Assembly (NCBI GenBank): GCA_964373795.1
Contig: CAYJVY010000009.1
Coordinates: forward strand, 30,001-62,000
DNA from: an uncultured archaeon
GTDB taxonomy: Archaea; Iainarchaeota; Iainarchaeia; Iainarchaeales; DATDZZ01
Reading direction: 5' to 3'
DNA: 32,000 nt
The notes beneath the pieces were generated by a model, which searched no databases, had not been told where the DNA came from, and saw only the letters and a program-made list of their open reading frames with translations. Both the position numbers and the translations under genes were made by a program. Shown here in pieces: positions 10,858-18,057 of this stretch. How positions within the stretch are numbered: the stretch's first letter is position 1; every line of letters begins with the position of its first letter.

Positions 10858-10916
10858 CAATCTTTGTTTTATTCATTAAATAAGATTACTTTTTGATGAA
10901 TTTCTTTGGTGAATTT

Positions 10917-11312
10917 ATGGCTGTAGAAGAAAAAAAATTTGTTGAAATAGGACAGTTAAAAGAAGGGGGATATGTTTTAATTGATGGAATTGCTTGTCAA
11001 ATAAAGTCTTTTGATAAATCCAAGCCTGGAAAACACGGAGCTGCAAAAGCAAGAATTGTTGCAGTAGGAGTTTTTAATGCCCAGAAAAAAAATTTATTAA
11101 AACCAGTTTCAGCTGAAGCTGAAGTTCCAATAATTAAAAAAGGCACTGCTCAAGTAGTTGCAGTAATGGGGGAGGTTGTTCAAATAATGGATACAACTTC
11201 TTATGAAACATTTGATGTAAAAAAACCCAAAGAAATTGAAGACCTTCAATCCGGAACTGAAATTGAATACAATCAATATGGTTCTGAACTAATGATTGTA
11301 AGAAAAAGATAA
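10917..11312 (+). CDS. eif5a: Translation initiation factor 5A (aIF5A)
   Basis: It contains the hypusination loop SKPGKHGAAKARIVAVG. The track ORF starts at TTG 10893, but ATG 10917 has a GGTGA SD 4 nt upstream and gives a typical ~131 aa protein. Confidence 0.92.
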   Translation: MAVEEKKFVEIGQLKEGGYVLIDGIACQIKSFDKSKPGKHGAAKARIVAVGVFNAQKKNLLKPVSAEAEVPIIKKGTAQVVAVMGEVVQIMDTTSYETFDVKKPKEIEDLQSGTEIEYNQYGSELMIVRKR

Positions 11313-11329: not shown

Positions 11330-12088
11330 GTGACTTTAATGAATCTAGTATTAGTTGAATCAAGTCAGGGTTGCCTGGATAAAAATATTGGAACAGAACT
11401 AGCTCCTAGAAAAATTTTAAAACAATTAAATTCTTCTCTTTTGGAAAAACATTTAGAAATAGAAATTCCTGTAAGCATTAATTCTTTTGAAGAAACCCTT
11501 GAAAGCATTGAATTTAATTCTGCAAGATTAGAAGGCAAAAATGTTTTCATTGGAGGTGATCAATCTATTTCTTTTGCTTTATTCAAAGCTTTAAAGAAAA
11601 AAATTATTGAAAAAAGCATTGGATTAATTGTTTTCGATTCTACTTCAAATCTTATTAATAGTTCTTTTCCTCCAAGCAATGAAAACTGGCTTAGAGTTTT
11701 AATTGAAAAAGGTGCTTTGAATTCAAACAATCTTTTATTAATGGGCTTGCAAGCATTTTCTTCAACTGAAGAAGAATTCATTAAAGAAAAAAATCTTTCA
11801 ATTATTTCTTGTAAAGAAATATTTGAAGAAAAAGAAAAAGTAAAACAAAAACTTCAAGAATTTTTAAATAAATTTGATTTCTTTTATTGTTCAATTGATT
11901 TAAACCTCTTTTATTCGGCAGAAAATGGTTTAAGTGTAGAACAATTTTTTGAATTACTTGGTTTAATTCTTTTTTCTAAAAAAGTTCGAGACTTTGATTT
12001 AGTTGAAGCAAACCCTTTAAAAGATGAAGAAAACAAAACCATTCTCATTGCAGCAAAAATACTTGAAAAAATTCTTAACTCAAATTGA
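11330..12088 (+). CDS. Arginase/agmatinase-fold protein with degenerate metal-binding motifs (probable pseudoenzyme)
   Basis: Family motifs are recognisable but mutated: GGDHS is GGDQS, DAHxD is DSTSN, and SxDxDxxDP is SIDLNLFYS. The C-terminal DFDLVEANPLKD is retained. The position next to aIF5A is the usual speB position. Confidence 0.65.
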   Translation: MTLMNLVLVESSQGCLDKNIGTELAPRKILKQLNSSLLEKHLEIEIPVSINSFEETLESIEFNSARLEGKNVFIGGDQSISFALFKALKKKIIEKSIGLIVFDSTSNLINSSFPPSNENWLRVLIEKGALNSNNLLLMGLQAFSSTEEEFIKEKNLSIISCKEIFEEKEKVKQKLQEFLNKFDFFYCSIDLNLFYSAENGLSVEQFFELLGLILFSKKVRDFDLVEANPLKDEENKTILIAAKILEKILNSN

Positions 12089-12096
12089 TTTGAAAC

Positions 12097-14217
12097 TTAG
12101 TTTAAAAACTTGTATTTTCCGCCACAAAATTTTATTATTAGTTCAAGTGTTTCTAAAACAATTTTTTTCAATTTCTGGCCTTTGAGTTGGGAATTACCCA
12201 TAAAACACATTAAAACGCTTCTAGTGTGTTGATTAACCTTTGAAACCTCTGATTGTTTAGTTAACCAACGAGTGATAACCTCTTTATTGGAGTCAACCAA
12301 AATTATTTCTCCAGGAAAAATTTTTACTCTTTCTTGCGAGCCTACTGGAGTGAATTTTTCTTGTCCGATTGCCTTTCTTAAAAAAACTTTTCCAAAAACC
12401 TTTTTCCTATCATATGCTCCAATAACTAATCCATACTCTAAAGACTTCAAATTATAGCAATCAGTAACAGTGTTAATGTTAGGCAGTTTACTACTTTCTT
12501 GAAATTGTTGTAACAAGTTATCAACTGAAACAAGTTCTCCTCTGTCTTTTTCTCCAAGATTTTTTCTATATTCTTCTACATGCAGTGATTTGGAAATTTT
12601 TGTTGCATCAATTTTTGAAAAAAAATCTTTTTTAAATCTCTCTAAAGACATGGATTTTGATTGAACGTTTAATCCATTCACTTGCACTACAAAAAATTCT
12701 TCATTAACTTTTGAATCTTTTTCGAATTCAAGCCAAGGAAATTCTTTTTCCTCTAATTGTTTTGCATCAAGTTTTTTGAATAAAATTTCTCCTTTGCTTA
12801 TTTTAGTTCCTGCTTTCAATGAATTAAATTTGCAGTCAGAAATGCTTCCAAGTTTAACGCCTAGTTGTTCGCAGATTTTTTCACTTGTTGAAGGCATTAC
12901 AGGATAAACTAGTATTGCAATTATTTTAATTGAATCAGCTAAAGAGTATAACACATTGTCTAATTCTTTTCCTTTTAATTTCCAAGGCTCTTTTTCGTTA
13001 ACAAATTTATTGCATGCATTAATGAAATGCCAGATTTCACTTAAAGCGTTATGAATTTCAAGTGACTGCATTAATTGTTTTATTTTTTCTAAATGCAATT
13101 CTTTTTGCAGTTCTTCGCTTGCCTTTCCTGCAGGAATGTTTTCTCCATTTTTTTCAATTAAACTTAAAACCCTGCTTACAAGGTTTCCTAAATCGTTTGC
13201 TAATTCATTGTTTAGTCTTTCAATTATTCCTGTTTCGGAAAAATTTCCGTCTTGGCCAAAAGGGATTTCTCTAACCAAAAAATATCTTAATGCATCTACT
13301 CCATAAATTTCGGTTAAATAATTTGGGTCAACTACATTGCCTAGAGATTTACTCATTTTTTGTCCATTGACTGTTAAAAATCCGTGAGAGTAAACTGTTT
13401 TAGGGATTTTATATCCTGCACTCATTAACATTGCAGGCCATTGAATGCAGTGAAATTTTTGAATATCTTTTCCCACTATATGTAAATCTGCTGGCCAAAA
13501 TTTTTTTTCATCCCCTGAAACATAATTAACTAAAGCGTCAAACCAAACCCATATTTTGTGAGAAGAATCAATTGGAACATTTATTCCCCATTCAAGGTTT
13601 GGCCTTGAAATACTTAAATCTTTTAATCCTGATTTAATAAAGTTAATTATTTCATTTCTTCTTTGCTCTGGTTGAACAAATTCGGGGTTTTCTTCAATTA
13701 ATTTTAATAGCCTGTCTTGATATTTTGATAACTTGAAAAAATAGTTTTCTTCAGAGATTTCTTCAGGAGCTTTTTTATGTAAAGGACATTTTCCTTTAAC
13801 TAAATCTAATTCCATTAAAAAAGCTTCACAGCCTTTACAGTAAAATCCTTTATAATTTCCTTTGAAAATATCTCCTGCATTAAATACTTTCATGAAAAAC
13901 TCTGTTACAACTTTTTTATGCTGTTCTTCGGTTGTTCGAATAAATCTGTCAAAAGAAATGTTCAAGTTTTTCCAAGTTTTAATCCATTTTCCAGCCATTG
14001 AATTAGAGTAGGCTTGAATGTCTTCAAATCCTTGTTTTTTTGCTGCTTCAACTGTTTTACTTGCATTTTCATCTAATCCAGTTAAATAAAACACTTCTTC
14101 TCCTAACAAGCGATGCCATCGAGCTATGACGTCTGCAATAATCGTAGTGTAAGCACTTCCAACGCTTGGCACATCATTAATGTAATAAATAGGTGTTGTA
14201 ACAAAAAATTTTTTCAT
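12097..14217 (-). CDS. metG: Methionyl-tRNA synthetase with appended C-terminal B3/4-like domain
   Basis: TTPIYYINDVP..AYTTIIADVIARWHRL, the zinc knuckle CKGC...CPLH and KMSKSLGNVV match MetRS. Residues ~490-706 carry INTVTDCYNLKSLEYGLVIGAYD...GEIILVDSNKEVITRW, which is B3/4-like. Confidence 0.92.
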   Translation of the reverse strand: MKKFFVTTPIYYINDVPSVGSAYTTIIADVIARWHRLLGEEVFYLTGLDENASKTVEAAKKQGFEDIQAYSNSMAGKWIKTWKNLNISFDRFIRTTEEQHKKVVTEFFMKVFNAGDIFKGNYKGFYCKGCEAFLMELDLVKGKCPLHKKAPEEISEENYFFKLSKYQDRLLKLIEENPEFVQPEQRRNEIINFIKSGLKDLSISRPNLEWGINVPIDSSHKIWVWFDALVNYVSGDEKKFWPADLHIVGKDIQKFHCIQWPAMLMSAGYKIPKTVYSHGFLTVNGQKMSKSLGNVVDPNYLTEIYGVDALRYFLVREIPFGQDGNFSETGIIERLNNELANDLGNLVSRVLSLIEKNGENIPAGKASEELQKELHLEKIKQLMQSLEIHNALSEIWHFINACNKFVNEKEPWKLKGKELDNVLYSLADSIKIIAILVYPVMPSTSEKICEQLGVKLGSISDCKFNSLKAGTKISKGEILFKKLDAKQLEEKEFPWLEFEKDSKVNEEFFVVQVNGLNVQSKSMSLERFKKDFFSKIDATKISKSLHVEEYRKNLGEKDRGELVSVDNLLQQFQESSKLPNINTVTDCYNLKSLEYGLVIGAYDRKKVFGKVFLRKAIGQEKFTPVGSQERVKIFPGEIILVDSNKEVITRWLTKQSEVSKVNQHTRSVLMCFMGNSQLKGQKLKKIVLETLELIIKFCGGKYKFLN

Positions 14218-14229
14218 TAAAATTCAACC

Positions 14230-14691
14230 TTAATTGTATTTTCCGTTGCAAGTAATTGACATAACTCTATTTGATTGAGCAATTGTTACAGCATCATCTC
14301 CAAATTCATCAAAGGTTAACTGAATTTCATTTTTATATGTTAAACCTTCTTTCCCACTTTTAAGTATTGCTGTAACAGTATTTTCATCTCCTGCAATAAA
14401 AAGTGTTGCAGGATTTAAAGTTTTTTCAATATTTGCTGAAACATCTTTTACTTTTGTTACTTGAATCTTGTGTGAAAGAATATTTGAAAAAGTTAAACCA
14501 AAATTTCCATCAACCCTATATATATGTGATTTGTAAACAAATTTTGAAGGAAAACCAGTGCATAACTCAATATTTCCACCTAAATTAAATAAACCTAAAT
14601 ACCCTAGAATTCCAATTATAATTACTATTACAACTAATGCCCATCCATAAGTCATTAAGTATTCCAAAGCTGATTGTGCTTTTTCATTCAT
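14230..14691 (-). CDS. Archaeal type IV pilin-like protein (class III signal peptide), paralog A
   Basis: MNEKA|QSALEYLMTYGWALVVIVIIIGILGYLG is a class III signal peptide. The two Cys (ELCTG, ITCNGKY) are conserved with 15898..16365. Confidence 0.82.
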   Translation of the reverse strand: MNEKAQSALEYLMTYGWALVVIVIIIGILGYLGLFNLGGNIELCTGFPSKFVYKSHIYRVDGNFGLTFSNILSHKIQVTKVKDVSANIEKTLNPATLFIAGDENTVTAILKSGKEGLTYKNEIQLTFDEFGDDAVTIAQSNRVMSITCNGKYN

Positions 14692-15071: not shown

Positions 15072-15773
15072 ATGAACAGACTAGTAATTGAAAGAACTAA
15101 GACAGGTGTTCTAGGATTTGATAAGTTACTTGGCGGAGGAATTCCAAGAGGAAACCTTGTAGTACTAGCAGGTGATCCTGGATCTGGGAAAACCATTTTC
15201 AGTATTCAGTTTTTATATGAAGGAATAATGCAATTTAAAGAACCAGGAATTTTTATTAGTTTAGAGGAATCTCCTGACACAATTATTAAAACTGCTGCTC
15301 TTTTTGGATGGGATTTAAATCCATTAATTGAAAAAGGATTGCTAAAAATTTACACAATAGAGTTATATGATTTTGATAAACTGAAAAACACTATTGAAGA
15401 CTTGATTTCTTCAATTGAAGCTAAAAGACTTGTACTAGATCCAGGAGTAATTTTTAGATTATTCTTTGAAAGAGAATTAGAGGCAAGAAAAAGAATTCTT
15501 TCACTTGGAAAACTAATTAAAAAACTGAATTGCACTACAGTTATAACAAATGAAATTGCTTTAGATCAACAGCAATCCTTGTTTGGTTTAGAAGAATACG
15601 TTGCAGATGGAGTAATTCTCTTATTTCACACTCGCTTAGGAAACAAATATGTTAGATCAATTGGAATTCTGAAAATGAGAGGCACAGACATAACTGAAAA
15701 AATTCATTCAGTTCAAATAACTAAAAACGGTATAAACATTTCAAGCGGCAGACCAATATTCGAAGAACTTTAA
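15072..15773 (+). CDS. Single-domain KaiC/RecA-superfamily ATPase (ArlH/FlaH-like)
   Basis: It has GFDKLLGGGIPRGNLVVLAGDPGSGKT (Walker A), RLVLDPG (Walker B-like) and GILKMRG. The 233 aa length matches ArlH-type proteins. An AGGTGA SD lies 4 nt upstream. Confidence 0.8.
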   Translation: MNRLVIERTKTGVLGFDKLLGGGIPRGNLVVLAGDPGSGKTIFSIQFLYEGIMQFKEPGIFISLEESPDTIIKTAALFGWDLNPLIEKGLLKIYTIELYDFDKLKNTIEDLISSIEAKRLVLDPGVIFRLFFERELEARKRILSLGKLIKKLNCTTVITNEIALDQQQSLFGLEEYVADGVILLFHTRLGNKYVRSIGILKMRGTDITEKIHSVQITKNGINISSGRPIFEEL

Positions 15774-15897: not shown

Positions 15898-16365
15898 ATG
15901 TTTAAACAAAAAGGTCAATCTGCTCTTGAGTATTTAATGACTTATGGATGGGCATTAGTAGTAATTGTTGTAGTAATTGGAGTTCTAGGTTTTTTAGGAG
16001 TATTCAATTTAGGTGGAACAATTGAATCTTGTACTGGAATGCCTTCTCAATTTCAATACTCGGCTCATAGATATAAAGCTGATGGAAACTTTATGTTAAC
16101 TTTTAATAATGGTTCAAATTATGATGTAAATGTTACTGCTTTAAGTGTTGGAGGAACATCCAAGACTCTTTCTCCAGCTGTGCAATTAGCTAAAGGAAAA
16201 GCTGGAACAGTTGGTTCTGGTGGTTATAAAACTGGGACAAGTGGAACTTCTTACAAAGTTGATGTAACCCTTACTTATGATGGATTAAAAGATGATGGAA
16301 CTATTGAACCAACTCAAGGCGCAAAAAAAGTTACAGGCGTGCAGTGTACAGGTAAATACGAGTAA
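15898..16365 (+). CDS. Archaeal type IV pilin-like protein (class III signal peptide), paralog B
   Basis: MFKQKG|QSALEYLMTYGWALVVIVVVIGVLGFLG is a class III signal peptide. Conserved Cys are at ESCTG and VQCTGKYE. It has the strongest SD in the window, which suggests a major subunit. Confidence 0.85.
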   Translation: MFKQKGQSALEYLMTYGWALVVIVVVIGVLGFLGVFNLGGTIESCTGMPSQFQYSAHRYKADGNFMLTFNNGSNYDVNVTALSVGGTSKTLSPAVQLAKGKAGTVGSGGYKTGTSGTSYKVDVTLTYDGLKDDGTIEPTQGAKKVTGVQCTGKYE

Positions 16366-16460: not shown

Positions 16461-16922
16461 ATGGGTTTTAAGTCTGAAGACGAAAAGAAACTGCAAAAAC
16501 TCACTTCTTATGCATGGGTTTTAGTATTAATTTTTATTTTACTTGCAGTAACTTTGTTTTTTACTGGATTTAAGTTAGTTAAACCAAAACCTAAATGCAT
16601 TGATTTCCCTGAATATTTAGTTTATGAAAAGCATTCTTTGAATGACAAAGGAGAGTTTTCTTTAGCTTTAACTAGTTCAAAAAACTTGACTCTGAGTTCA
16701 ATAGAACTTGATGGAGAATTGCTTGTTTTAGCTGATAAAAGCAAAAGCGTTGTTTCAGAAATAGCATTAACTAAAGACAAAAGCACCGAAATTAATGCTC
16801 TTGGATCGCCTCAAAAACAAGAAGAAAAAGAGTATTCAAAACAACTTAGATTAACTTATTTTTTTGAAGGCGAGAATAGAAAAATTGTTTCAATTGCTTC
16901 TTGCACTGGAGTAATTGAATAA
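16461..16922 (+). CDS. Pilin-paralog C with divergent N-terminus
   Basis: It is the same length (153 aa). TSYAWVLVLIFILLAV aligns with MTYGWALVVIV, and both Cys positions are conserved (PKCIDFPEYLVY, ASCTGVIE). The K-G/A|Q cleavage motif is missing. Confidence 0.6.
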   Translation: MGFKSEDEKKLQKLTSYAWVLVLIFILLAVTLFFTGFKLVKPKPKCIDFPEYLVYEKHSLNDKGEFSLALTSSKNLTLSSIELDGELLVLADKSKSVVSEIALTKDKSTEINALGSPQKQEEKEYSKQLRLTYFFEGENRKIVSIASCTGVIE

Positions 16923-17058: not shown

Positions 17059-18057
17059 TTAAGTGAGTAAGCCTGCGAAAAAGAATAAGAATAATTCTCT
17101 TACTACAATGAATACTGTTAGTGAAACAATTAGTATTGGAATAAAGTATTTTAATCCTGTTTTTTCTTTTCCTGAATTTATTACTCCAATTGTCATGCTT
17201 GCAAAAATGCTTCCAACGAATAACACTAAATATGCAAAGAATAAAACAAATTCTGGATCTATTCCTCCACCTGAACCTGTTACTATTGGCACTGGGCTTT
17301 TGCTTAAAGCTTCTGGATTAATTCCTTCTCCAATGCCTGCTGTTTGAGCTGTAAGAGCTTGAACAATGAAAGTACTAATTCCTAAAAGAAATGGCCCTCC
17401 AAAAGCCGAGCCAAAAAAAATCAATAAAACATACATTGAAATGTTTGATTTAATTTCTGATTGAACTGATCTTTGTTGTCTTAAATCATTTGAAAGCTGT
17501 ACAAGCAAGTCAGCTATTTGTCCTCCACTGCTAACTCCTTTTGAAATAAGCCAAACAGTTCTTTCCAAGATTTTTGACTTAATTTGGTTGGGTAATTCAA
17601 GTAAAGCTGTTTCAATTCTTTCTCCTGCTAAAATTTTTTGAGTTGCTTTTTTTAATTCTCGTTCTAATGCACCAAATTCCGGGCGAGATGCAATTAGTAA
17701 AGCTCTTTCAGTTGTTAATCCTGACTTAATATGTGACGCAATTAATTGAAGCGCGTCAGGTAAAATGTTTTCAACAAATTTTCCATTTGATTCAGCTGAA
17801 AGATCCATCCAATAATAAGGCAAGGCAAAGATTATTATACTTAAAATAATGAATGACAGTAAAAAGAATGGCAGGCTTAATTCAAATAATAAAAATAAAT
17901 TAATTGTTAAAATAAATCCTAAAATCAAGCTAAAAATAGTTAAAAAGCCTACAAATATTTCTTCATCTCCTCTAAAATCCATGAATTCAAATTCTCTTTT
18001 AAATGCGTTCAAAATATTTTTTGGCAGTATTTTTCCAATTTTTTTGTAGTAACTCAT
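17059..18057 (-). CDS. Type II secretion system F-domain platform protein (TadC/ArlJ C-half-like)
   Basis: 332 aa. N-terminal TM helices are followed by a cytoplasmic helical domain (LPDALQLIASHIKSGLTTERAL...) and C-terminal TM helices. Confidence 0.8.
   Translation of the reverse strand: MSYYKKIGKILPKNILNAFKREFEFMDFRGDEEIFVGFLTIFSLILGFILTINLFLLFELSLPFFLLSFIILSIIIFALPYYWMDLSAESNGKFVENILPDALQLIASHIKSGLTTERALLIASRPEFGALERELKKATQKILAGERIETALLELPNQIKSKILERTVWLISKGVSSGGQIADLLVQLSNDLRQQRSVQSEIKSNISMYVLLIFFGSAFGGPFLLGISTFIVQALTAQTAGIGEGINPEALSKSPVPIVTGSGGGIDPEFVLFFAYLVLFVGSIFASMTIGVINSGKEKTGLKYFIPILIVSLTVFIVVRELFLFFFAGLLT

What the first reader, a model, noticed from the sequence alone, without database searches (positions are those of the whole stretch)
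12097..12750. MetRS fused to a B3/4 (PheRS-beta editing-type) domain
Seen: after the normal end of the MetRS anticodon-binding domain (...KGEILFKKLD) there are ~215 extra residues. They include LPNINTVTDCYNLKSLEYGLVIGAYDRKKVFGKVFLRKAIGQEKFTPVGSQERVKIFPGEIILVDSNKEVITRWLTKQSEVSKVNQHTRSVLMCFMG. Established: this follows the B3/4 domain pattern (N-x-V-D-x-Y-N-x-x-S-L, G-x-x-D, R-x-A-x-G-x-E-x-F, G-E-x-x-x-x-D, W). That domain occurs in the PheRS beta editing domain and in stand-alone COG3382-type proteins. The C-terminal appendage usually found on MetRS is an OB-fold (Trbp111/EMAPII-like) tRNA-binding domain, not B3/4. Inference: the extra domain could be an appended tRNA-binding or editing-like module on MetRS, possibly for post-transfer clearance of mischarged tRNA-Met or simply for tRNA capture. 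I do not know of this architecture being described.
Basis: partly seen in the sequence, partly recalled or inferred. Interest (0 to 1): 0.65.

Follow-up and report, generated by a model that had tools for sequence, protein, structure and literature searches.

The report
MetRS fused to CtdA-like editing domain
This archaeal methionyl-tRNA synthetase carries at its C-terminus a complete copy of a protein family known to strip wrong amino acids off tRNA, a recurrent but apparently undescribed design suggesting that some microbes proofread methionine-tRNA after charging.

Summary
One uninterrupted 706-codon gene (window 12097-14217, minus strand) encodes a normal MetRS body (residues 1-484) followed by 222 residues that form a complete B3/4 domain. 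Support: Pfam PF03483 at 63.7 bits against a 29.3 cutoff, and an AF2 model (pLDDT 88.5) whose best PDB matches are the stand-alone canavanyl-tRNA(Arg) deacylase CtdA (TM 0.74 over its whole length), ahead of PheRS-beta.

It is not an artefact. The identical protein occurs in two independent assemblies. In-frame MetRS-B3/4 fusions occur in at least 50 GTDB species: DPANN lineages, Bathyarchaeia, Methanosarcinales and a few bacteria. They sit on two MetRS core types only about 26% identical, and sometimes an OB tRNA-binding domain follows.

The CtdA catalytic Asn, the pocket Gly and the pocket Gln are conserved. The side-chain-facing residues are fixed as Y/T/C (the window's group) or H/C/Y and are never acidic. 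In contrast, 57 of 58 ArgRS-fused relatives keep CtdA's Glu. Pocket chemistry therefore tracks the partner synthetase.

Best reading (about 0.5): a post-transfer editing module that removes a neutral methionine analogue from tRNA(Met). Main rival: a non-catalytic tRNA-binding or dimerisation appendage. I found no paper describing this architecture.

The parts
12097..14217 (-). Complete gene: MetRS fused to a CtdA-like B3/4 domain, 706 aa plus stop codon
   Evidence: Single ORF. NF008900 scores 639.5 bits and PF03483 scores 63.7 bits. The identical product occurs on two independent assemblies.
13165..14217 (-). MetRS catalytic Rossmann-fold body with connective peptide (about residues 1-351)
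   Evidence: PF09334 E 9e-98. Methionine-pocket equivalents I10, Y12, D49, W225, A228, L229, Y232, I252, H256 and W260 are conserved.
14155..14166 (-). Class I 'HIGH' signature position, here the non-canonical S-V-G-S (residues 18-21)
   Evidence: S/T-x-G-S/H/T variants are common in the related DPANN MetRS, whether fused or unfused.
13777..13839 (-). Zinc knuckle C127-x2-C130 ... C144-P-x-H147
   Evidence: Sequence. C127, C130 and C144 are invariant and H147 is nearly invariant in 41 relatives.
13345..13359 (-). KMSKS signature (residues 287-291)
   Evidence: It is conserved in relatives.
12766..13128 (-). Helical anticodon-binding domain (about residues 364-484), ending ...KGEILFKKLD
   Evidence: PF19303 and PF08264.
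12100..12765 (-). Appended module (residues 485-706): a short linker followed by a complete CtdA-like B3/4 fold, including the N-terminal helical/strand part that the Pfam profile misses
   Evidence: AF2 model with pLDDT 88.5. Foldseek finds CtdA 9mkl/9f7e at TM 0.74 over 226 columns. A 242-aa stand-alone relative (P0124) matches residues 9-227 of the 227-residue fragment searched, residues 480-706 of the protein.
12202..12531 (-). Pfam B3_4 (PF03483) envelope, residues 563-672
12205..12453 (-). Predicted aminoacyl pocket: N589 (CtdA N105 / E. coli PheRS-beta N254), G600 (G116), Y602 (E118), T649 (C166), K654-Q655 (R172-Q173), C671 (I189 / PheRS E334)
   Evidence: Alignments to CtdA and PheRS-beta. 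The functional roles of the CtdA residues come from PMC12449066. The alignment at T649 is uncertain by one residue.

Best explanation
The gene encodes a working methionyl-tRNA synthetase to which a complete CtdA-type B3/4 aminoacyl-tRNA deacylase has been fused. The proposed mechanism is as follows. The MetRS body charges tRNA(Met). When a non-cognate, uncharged, methionine-like amino acid is transferred instead (candidates are norleucine, homocysteine or its derivatives, ethionine, or hydroxylated methionine; the identity is not known), the acceptor end is captured by the C-terminal B3/4 pocket. That capture may happen in cis or after release. The ester bond is then hydrolysed by a water molecule positioned by the conserved Asn589, as in CtdA and PheRS-beta, while Met-tRNA(Met) is excluded by the pocket residues Y602, T649 and C671. 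What is shown: the fusion is real and conserved, the fold is that of CtdA, the catalytic or pocket Asn, Gly and Gln are conserved, and pocket chemistry co-varies with the partner synthetase. What is inferred: that the module has hydrolytic activity, that it acts on tRNA(Met), and what its substrate is.
For: (1) Fold and family. PF03483 is above its cutoff. CtdA is the best PDB match both by sequence and by structure, at TM 0.74 over the full length. CtdA is an experimentally proven stand-alone aa-tRNA deacylase (PMC10018355, PMC12449066).

(2) Persistent linkage to MetRS. 29 of the 120 best MetRS relatives carry the domain. 50 of 80 GTDB loci are in-frame fusions. The fusions sit on two MetRS core types only 25-31% identical to each other.

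(3) Three-domain MetRS-B3/4-OB proteins exist (P0035, P0051, Bathyarchaeia, Methanosarcinales). The module is therefore not simply a replacement for the OB tRNA-binding domain.

(4) Pocket conservation. D586, Y588, N589, E637, D642 and Q655 are invariant, and G600 nearly so (52 of 59 fused proteins), across fusions that share only 26-70% identity. The side-chain triad is fixed as H-C-Y or Y-T-C across phyla.

(5) Pocket chemistry tracks the partner enzyme. In 58 ArgRS-fused domains the CtdA pocket is retained: E118 in 57/58, C166 in 53, and N170-W171-R172 in 57, 48 and 57 respectively. None of 59 long, almost all MetRS-fused, proteins has an acidic residue at position 118. The LysRS fusion P0249 and the class II D/K/N-type synthetase fusion P0187 have Asp there.

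(6) In close relatives the domain is at least as conserved as the synthetase core: 70% against 55% identity to P0002.

(7) Precedent that mischarging of tRNA(Met) by a methionine analogue is countered by a dedicated deacylase: AlfB hydrolyses 3-hydroxymethionyl-tRNA(Met) (PMC13149037).
Against: There is no biochemical evidence for any MetRS-fused or H-C-Y / Y-T-C type B3/4 protein. The only characterised relatives share about 16-17% identity with this module. MetRS is known to reject homocysteine before transfer, at its synthetic site (PMC7373986), so the need for post-transfer editing is not obvious. The methionine-binding residues of fused and unfused MetRS are the same, giving no sign of relaxed specificity. 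Many close relatives (about 484 aa) manage with no C-terminal domain at all. CtdA residues E118, C166 and I189, which matter for its activity or specificity, are replaced. The authors of PMC12449066 themselves caution that archaeal 'CtdA-2' proteins may have a different function.
Confidence: 0.5

Rival explanations
1. The module is a non-catalytic appendage. It serves as an extra tRNA-binding and/or dimerisation domain that improves tRNA(Met) capture or makes MetRS dimeric, doing the job of the Trbp111/EMAPII-like OB domain of other MetRS.
For: In other MetRS the same C-terminal position is occupied by an OB tRNA-binding domain (PF01588 in P0064, P0073 and P0113). S. enterica CtdA is a dimer (PMC12449066). 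B3/4 domains bind the tRNA acceptor end by nature. Several CtdA specificity residues are replaced. The reduced DPANN genomes often carry such fusions.
Against: About 20 of the 50 fusions among the GTDB loci carry B3/4 followed by a ~157-aa C-terminal tail. Pfam identifies this tail as an OB tRNA_bind domain (PF01588) in P0035 and P0051, so the two domains are not interchangeable. The strongest conservation lies in the residues that line the CtdA aminoacyl pocket, including the Asn required for CtdA activity. The pocket residues change systematically with the partner synthetase, which is not expected for a generic tRNA clamp.
Confidence: 0.3
2. The module is catalytic or ligand-binding but is not directed at analogue-charged tRNA(Met). 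It might clear methionine placed on the wrong tRNAs, act in trans on products of another synthetase, sense a free amino acid, or tether MetRS to the ribosome as the B3/4 protein LRRC47 binds 40S.
For: Stand-alone proteins with the same H-C-Y pocket occur in Chloroflexia and Nanoarchaeota, unlinked to metG, so the module can work on its own. LRRC47 on 40S particles appears among the fold matches (8xp3, 6zxd). Mismethionylation of non-Met tRNAs by MetRS is documented (PMC7373986).
Against: The module is exclusively and repeatedly attached to MetRS, across two very different MetRS cores. The parallel ArgRS-CtdA case points to a substrate related to the partner enzyme. A module that removed methionine itself while attached to MetRS would create a futile cycle. 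The LRRC47 matches are much weaker (TM 0.43-0.45).
Confidence: 0.15
3. The fusion is an artefact: a chimeric assembly or a frameshift that joins metG to a separate B3/4 gene.
For: None was found. Stand-alone B3/4 genes do exist in related lineages.
Against: The identical 706-aa product occurs on contigs from two separate sequencing runs. There are 50 in-frame fusions in GTDB genomes, including the complete genome CP010424.1. The full-length AF2 model has pLDDT 91.2 with no disordered junction.
Confidence: 0.01

Closest known systems
CtdA, canavanyl-tRNA(Arg) deacylase (stand-alone B3/4 protein; PDB 9f7e, 9mkl)
   Same: Same fold over the whole ~225-residue length (TM 0.74). It is the best sequence match in the PDB. 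The pocket positions N105, G116, Q173, S80 and L84, and the motifs D-x-Y-N and G-E-x4-D, are conserved.
   Different: Here the module is fused to a synthetase, and to MetRS rather than working with ArgRS. Sequence identity is about 16-17%. CtdA E118 becomes Y (H in the other group), C166 becomes T, N170-W171-R172 becomes L-T-K, and I189 becomes C. The acidic and aromatic features suited to canavanine are therefore absent. No activity has been measured.
PheRS beta-subunit B3/4 editing domain (hydrolyses Tyr-tRNA(Phe))
   Same: Same Pfam family and fold. The water-positioning Asn (E. coli N254) and the following D268 are retained. The C-terminal C-G-G motif is shared.
   Different: It is not embedded between the B1-B2 and B5 domains of PheRS-beta. 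The E. coli editing residues H265, F267, G318 and E334 correspond here to G, Y, Q and C. The structural match is weaker (TM 0.5-0.6).
Trbp111/EMAPII-like OB domain at the C-terminus of many MetRS (PF01588)
   Same: It occupies the same position after the anticodon-binding domain, and both are tRNA-directed appendages.
   Different: The fold is unrelated. The window protein has no OB domain. In three-domain relatives the OB domain follows the B3/4 domain rather than replacing it.
Cis/trans editing pairs of other synthetases (ProRS INS with YbaK/ProXp, AlaRS with AlaX, ThrRS with ThrRS-ed), and AlfB, an AlaX-family deacylase for 3-hydroxymethionyl-tRNA(Met)
   Same: The same evolutionary logic applies: one deacylase family exists both free-standing and fused to the synthetase whose errors it corrects. 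AlfB shows that tRNA(Met) mischarged with a methionine analogue is a real editing target (PMC13149037).
   Different: The folds differ. No MetRS with a dedicated post-transfer editing domain appears in the reviews and database paper I read (PMC7373986, PMC11580382).
ArgRS with an N-terminal B3/4 domain in Patescibacteria (found here)
   Same: The same module family is fused to a class I synthetase, and it is widespread in uncultured small-genome lineages.
   Different: It is N-terminal rather than C-terminal. It keeps the full CtdA pocket (E118 in 57/58, C166 in 53/58), so it is presumably a cis-acting canavanine editor.

Membership tests
Methionyl-tRNA synthetase (class Ia) | Whole-protein match to a curated metG equivalog model above its cutoff | tested here: met
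   NF008900 scores 639.5 bits against a cutoff of 598. TIGR00398 scores 485 against 336.
Methionyl-tRNA synthetase (class Ia) | Class I signature motifs H-x-G-H and KMSKS | tested here: inconclusive
   KMSKS is present (residues 287-291). The HIGH position reads S-V-G-S (residues 18-21). Similar S/T-x-G-S/H variants occur in dozens of related DPANN MetRS, so this is a lineage trait. Its effect on catalysis is untested.
Methionyl-tRNA synthetase (class Ia) | Methionine-pocket residues, zinc knuckle and helical anticodon-binding domain | tested here: met
   Pocket equivalents are conserved. C127, C130, C144 and H147 are conserved. PF19303 and PF08264 are matched.
B3/4 domain superfamily (PF03483) | Profile match above the gathering score, and the B3/4 fold | tested here: met
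   63.7 bits against 29.3. Foldseek E 2.5e-13 to CtdA and 2e-9 to PheRS-beta.
CtdA (canavanyl-tRNA(Arg) deacylase) | Free-standing protein of about 230 aa | tested here: not met
   The module is residues 485-706 of a 706-aa MetRS.
CtdA (canavanyl-tRNA(Arg) deacylase) | Aminoacyl pocket N105, G116, E118, C166, Q173, I189 (PMC12449066) | tested here: not met
   N, G and Q are kept. E118 becomes Y, C166 becomes T and I189 becomes C. It is therefore not a canavanine-type pocket.
CtdA (canavanyl-tRNA(Arg) deacylase) | Hydrolysis of canavanyl-tRNA(Arg) | not testable with these tools
   This needs a biochemical assay.
PheRS beta-subunit editing domain | Located within PheRS-beta, and carrying editing residues equivalent to E. 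coli R244, N254, Y255, H265, F267, A312, G318 and E334 | tested here: not met
   The host protein is MetRS. Of the PheRS editing residues that could be mapped, only the N254 equivalent is retained (the neighbouring D268 is also kept). H265, F267, G318 and E334 correspond to G, Y, Q and C.
MetRS C-terminal Trbp111/EMAPII-like domain | PF01588 OB fold after the anticodon-binding domain | tested here: not met
   There is no PF01588 hit in the window protein. The domain is present downstream of B3/4 in P0035 and P0051.

The most novel reading that the evidence does not exclude
These are the first natural methionyl-tRNA synthetases with a dedicated post-transfer editing domain. They would also be one face of a wider unrecognised pattern in which CtdA-type B3/4 deacylases are fused to synthetases thought to lack hydrolytic editing domains (MetRS, ArgRS, class I LysRS and a class II D/K/N-type synthetase). 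In each case the pocket would be tuned to a non-protein analogue of the partner's amino acid. This would imply that uncultured archaea and CPR bacteria are regularly exposed to methionine, arginine and lysine antimetabolites.
Probability: 0.4. Interest if true: 0.8.

Novelty: new variant of a known kind. Interest (0 to 1): 0.68.

Why it matters
MetRS is the standard example of a class Ia synthetase that proofreads only at its synthetic site; it has no hydrolytic editing domain. ArgRS was long listed as having no editing at all, until CtdA was found in 2023. A conserved fusion of MetRS to a CtdA-type module gives a directly testable candidate for post-transfer editing of tRNA(Met). It offers a functional handle on the uncharacterised archaeal 'CtdA-2' proteins. 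It also provides a natural specificity series (Met-, Arg- and Lys-linked pockets) for working out how the B3/4 fold selects its substrate. The unknown substrate could reveal which methionine antimetabolites matter in anoxic sediments and groundwater. The module could also be useful for, or an obstacle to, genetic-code engineering with methionine surrogates.

Tried and rejected
1. A word-indexed homologue search with the C-terminal region alone returned nothing. The full-length query and the exhaustive HMMER search were needed instead.

2. The first genome scan was wasted. It was repeated with a trimmed alignment.

3. Gene neighbourhoods gave no clue to the substrate. The window has aIF5A, an arginase-family protein, a pilin/KaiC/T2SSF cluster, a HEAT protein and a NYN protein. 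Stand-alone H-C-Y genes in Chloroflexia sit next to unrelated housekeeping genes. None of the 30 stand-alone loci has metG within 5 kb. A short MetRS relative has no adjacent B3/4 gene.

4. I looked for relaxed methionine-pocket residues in fused compared with unfused MetRS and found none.

5. The non-canonical HIGH motif is not correlated with the fusion.

6. There are no tRNA genes in the window.

7. The full-length AF2 model is confident (pLDDT 91.2, pTM 0.75). However, coordinates are not exposed, so the distance between the synthetic site and the B3/4 pocket could not be measured.

8. Eight literature searches and reading of the CtdA papers, the AARS Online paper and a general aaRS review found no mention of a MetRS-B3/4 architecture. 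Subscription-only literature and InterPro architecture tables could not be checked.

9. The artefact hypothesis was rejected.
Full report
**Observation.** The minus-strand ORF at 12097-14217 is one uninterrupted 706-codon gene.
- Residues 1-484 are a standard MetRS. PF09334 matches at E 9e-98, the anticodon-binding domains PF19303 and PF08264 are present, and the NCBIfam equivalog NF008900 scores 639.5 bits against a cutoff of 598.
- KMSKS, the Cys3-His zinc knuckle and the methionine-pocket residues are in place.
- The body ends ...KGEILFKKLD at residue 484. Residues 485-706 (nt 12100-12765) are extra.
- Pfam B3_4 (PF03483) matches residues 563-672 at 63.7 bits against a cutoff of 29.3.

**What the extra part is.** It is a complete B3/4 protein, not a fragment.
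- An AlphaFold2 model of the last 227 residues, built from 29 fused homologues, is confident (pLDDT 88.5, pTM 0.85).
- Its best PDB matches are the two crystal structures of the free-standing canavanyl-tRNA(Arg) deacylase CtdA, 9mkl and 9f7e. They align over 226 columns, which is CtdA's whole length (TM 0.74, E 2.5e-13). PheRS beta-subunit B3/4 domains follow at TM 0.5-0.6.
- Sequence searches agree. CtdA is the top PDB hit for the single sequence (E 5e-4) and for a profile of fused domains (E 7e-14, against 3e-6 for E. coli PheRS-beta).
- An exhaustive HMMER search of 1.84 billion representative proteins found 1033 relatives. They are a mix of 220-240-aa stand-alone proteins that match end to end (for example P0124, 36% identity) and 700-930-aa proteins that match at their C-terminal part.

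A whole COG3382/CtdA-type protein has thus been joined to the end of MetRS.

**Not an artefact, and not rare.**
- The identical 706-aa product is encoded on contigs from two different sequencing runs.
- 29 of the 120 closest MetRS proteins carry PF03483. They share 45-59% identity with the window protein and are named Diapherotrites, Woesearchaeota or Undinarchaeota where a name is given.
- A scan of one genome per GTDB species found 225 species with a relative of the module. Of the 80 best loci, 50 are in-frame MetRS fusions and 30 are stand-alone genes.
- Fusions occur in Woesearchaeota, Iainarchaeota (including the complete genome CP010424.1), Nanoarchaeota, Aenigmatarchaeota, Micrarchaeota, Bathyarchaeia and uncultured Methanosarcinales. 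They also occur in a few bacterial MAGs (Planctomycetia, Shapirobacteria, Krumholzibacteriaceae).
- About 20 of the 50 fusions carry a further ~157-aa tail after the B3/4 domain. Where Pfam data are available (P0035, P0051), this tail is an OB tRNA_bind domain (PF01588), giving MetRS-B3/4-OB.
- The module is attached to two MetRS core types that are only 25-31% identical to each other.
- In a rough neighbour-joining tree the MetRS-linked modules form one large clade. A stand-alone Chloroflexia/Nanoarchaeota subclade is nested inside it, and the window's group is its sister.

**Evidence on function.** In CtdA, mutagenesis defines an aminoacyl pocket of N105, G116, E118, C166, Q173 and I189. N105 is essential, and the pocket's size and chemistry set specificity (PMC12449066).
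- In the fused modules the equivalents of D102, Y104, N105, E155, D160 and Q173 are invariant or nearly so, and the G116 equivalent is Gly in 52 of 59 fused proteins, among sequences that share only 26-70% identity. In the window protein these are D586, Y588, N589, G600, E637, D642 and Q655.
- The three side-chain-facing positions (window 602, 649 and 671) take only two forms. One is Y-T-C, seen in the window and its relatives, including two bacterial fusions. The other is H-C-Y, seen in all other fusions from Woesearchaeota to Bathyarchaeia and Methanosarcinales, and in the nested stand-alone genes.
- None of 59 long, almost all MetRS-fused, proteins has an acidic residue at the CtdA E118 position.
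- The same search also brought up the module fused to other synthetases: ArgRS, class I LysRS and a class II Asp/Lys/Asn-type enzyme.
- Following the ArgRS case, 58 of the 120 best ArgRS relatives carry the module, always N-terminal and mostly in Patescibacteria. Their pockets are the CtdA pocket: E118 in 57/58, C166 in 53, N170 in 57, W171 in 48 and R172 in 57.

Pocket chemistry therefore follows the amino acid of the partner enzyme. This is what an amino-acid-specific editing site predicts and what a generic tRNA clamp does not. In addition, the domain is at least as conserved as the synthetase core between close relatives (70% against 55%). Its coexistence with the OB domain argues that it is not simply a substitute tRNA-binding domain.

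**Most likely mechanism (confidence about 0.5).** The module is a post-transfer editing domain. MetRS charges tRNA(Met). If a neutral methionine-like analogue is transferred instead, the 3' end enters the B3/4 pocket and is hydrolysed by an Asn589-positioned water molecule, while methionine is excluded. The substrate is unknown. Norleucine, homocysteine derivatives, ethionine and hydroxymethionine are candidates, proposed only by analogy. A deacylase for 3-hydroxymethionyl-tRNA(Met), from a different fold family, was recently described (PMC13149037).

**Caveats.**
- No member of this subgroup has been assayed.
- Identity to CtdA is about 16-17%.
- MetRS already rejects homocysteine before transfer (PMC7373986).
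- The fused and unfused MetRS have the same methionine pocket.
- Many close relatives have no C-terminal domain at all.

**Rival explanations.**
- The main rival (about 0.3) is a non-catalytic tRNA-binding or dimerisation appendage. CtdA is a dimer, and the position is the one the OB domain usually occupies.
- A smaller share (about 0.15) goes to other roles of a functional pocket: clearing mismethionylated tRNAs, acting in trans for another synthetase, sensing an amino acid, or ribosome tethering in the manner of LRRC47.

**Comparison with what is known.** The protein is a member of MetRS and of the B3/4 superfamily.
- It is not a CtdA in the strict sense. It is fused, and three pocket residues differ.
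- It is not a PheRS-type editing domain. Only the Asn of the mapped PheRS editing residues is retained, along with the neighbouring Asp.
- I found no description of a MetRS-B3/4 architecture in eight full-text searches. It is also absent from the two CtdA papers, a CtdA structure preprint, the AARS Online paper (whose table of domains shared between synthetase families lists only the OB/EMAP, GST and WHEP appendages for MetRS) and a general review.
- Public annotation calls these proteins simply 'methionine--tRNA ligase'.
- The architecture is surely visible in domain databases, which I could not query.

I rate it a new variant of a known kind: a known editing-domain family on a new synthetase partner.

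**Verdict.** The finding is real, conserved and apparently undescribed. It gives a concrete, testable candidate for post-transfer editing by MetRS. Interest 0.68.

Noticed in passing
window 14155-14166 (-), residues 18-21 of the MetRS: The class I 'HIGH' signature reads S-V-G-S, with both histidines missing. Among related DPANN MetRS, S/T-x-G-S/H/T/N variants (SVGS, TIGH, SIGH, TVGS and others) outnumber canonical H-x-G-H, and they occur in fused and unfused proteins alike. This looks like a lineage-wide departure from the textbook motif. Its catalytic consequences are unknown.
   Followed up: partly
P0237 and P0271-P0341; not in the window: ArgRS with an N-terminal CtdA-like B3/4 domain is common in Patescibacteria/CPR (Gottesmanbacteria, Peregrinibacteria). 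58 of the 120 best ArgRS relatives carry it, and it keeps the full experimentally defined CtdA pocket. It is probably a cis-acting canavanine-editing ArgRS. The words 'fused' and 'fusion' do not occur in the CtdA papers I read.
   Followed up: partly
P0249, P0251, P0187, P0248, P0133, P0201: The same B3/4 family is also fused to class I LysRS (at the N- or C-terminus), to a class II Asp/Lys/Asn-type synthetase, to an amidase, to a GFO/IDH/MocA oxidoreductase, and to an OB tRNA_bind domain alone. The fusion to class I LysRS P0249 and the fusion to the class II synthetase P0187 have Asp at the CtdA E118 position.
   Followed up: no
window 14230-14691 (-), 15898-16365 (+), 16461-16922 (+), with 15072-15773 (+) and 17059-18057 (-): There are three paralogous proteins of about 153 aa with no Pfam match. 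Two of them start with an archaeal class III (type IV pilin-like) signal sequence, GQSALEYLMTYGWALVV. They flank a KaiC-family ATPase and lie near a T2SSF-family membrane protein, so this is probably an archaeal type IV pilus locus.
   Followed up: partly
window 10893-11312 (+) and 11330-12088 (+): An aIF5A gene is followed 18 bp later by an arginase/agmatinase-family gene. The latter converges on the 3' end of the MetRS gene with only 8 bp between the two stop codons.
   Followed up: no
L068 (Krumholzibacteriaceae MAG) versus L045 and L043 (Bathyarchaeota): The three-domain fusion in a bacterial MAG clusters tightly with the Bathyarchaeota proteins in the module tree. This indicates either recent horizontal transfer or a mis-binned contig. 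The other bacterial occurrences (Planctomycetia, Shapirobacteria) are more divergent.
   Followed up: no
L050, L055, L075-L078, L082, L083 (Bathyarchaeota, Hadarchaeota, Hydrothermarchaeales): Stand-alone archaeal B3/4 proteins have further distinct and internally conserved pocket signatures (F-T-F with N-Y-R-D; F-A-L with P-Y-R-D). This suggests additional, uncharacterised substrate specificities within the family.
   Followed up: no
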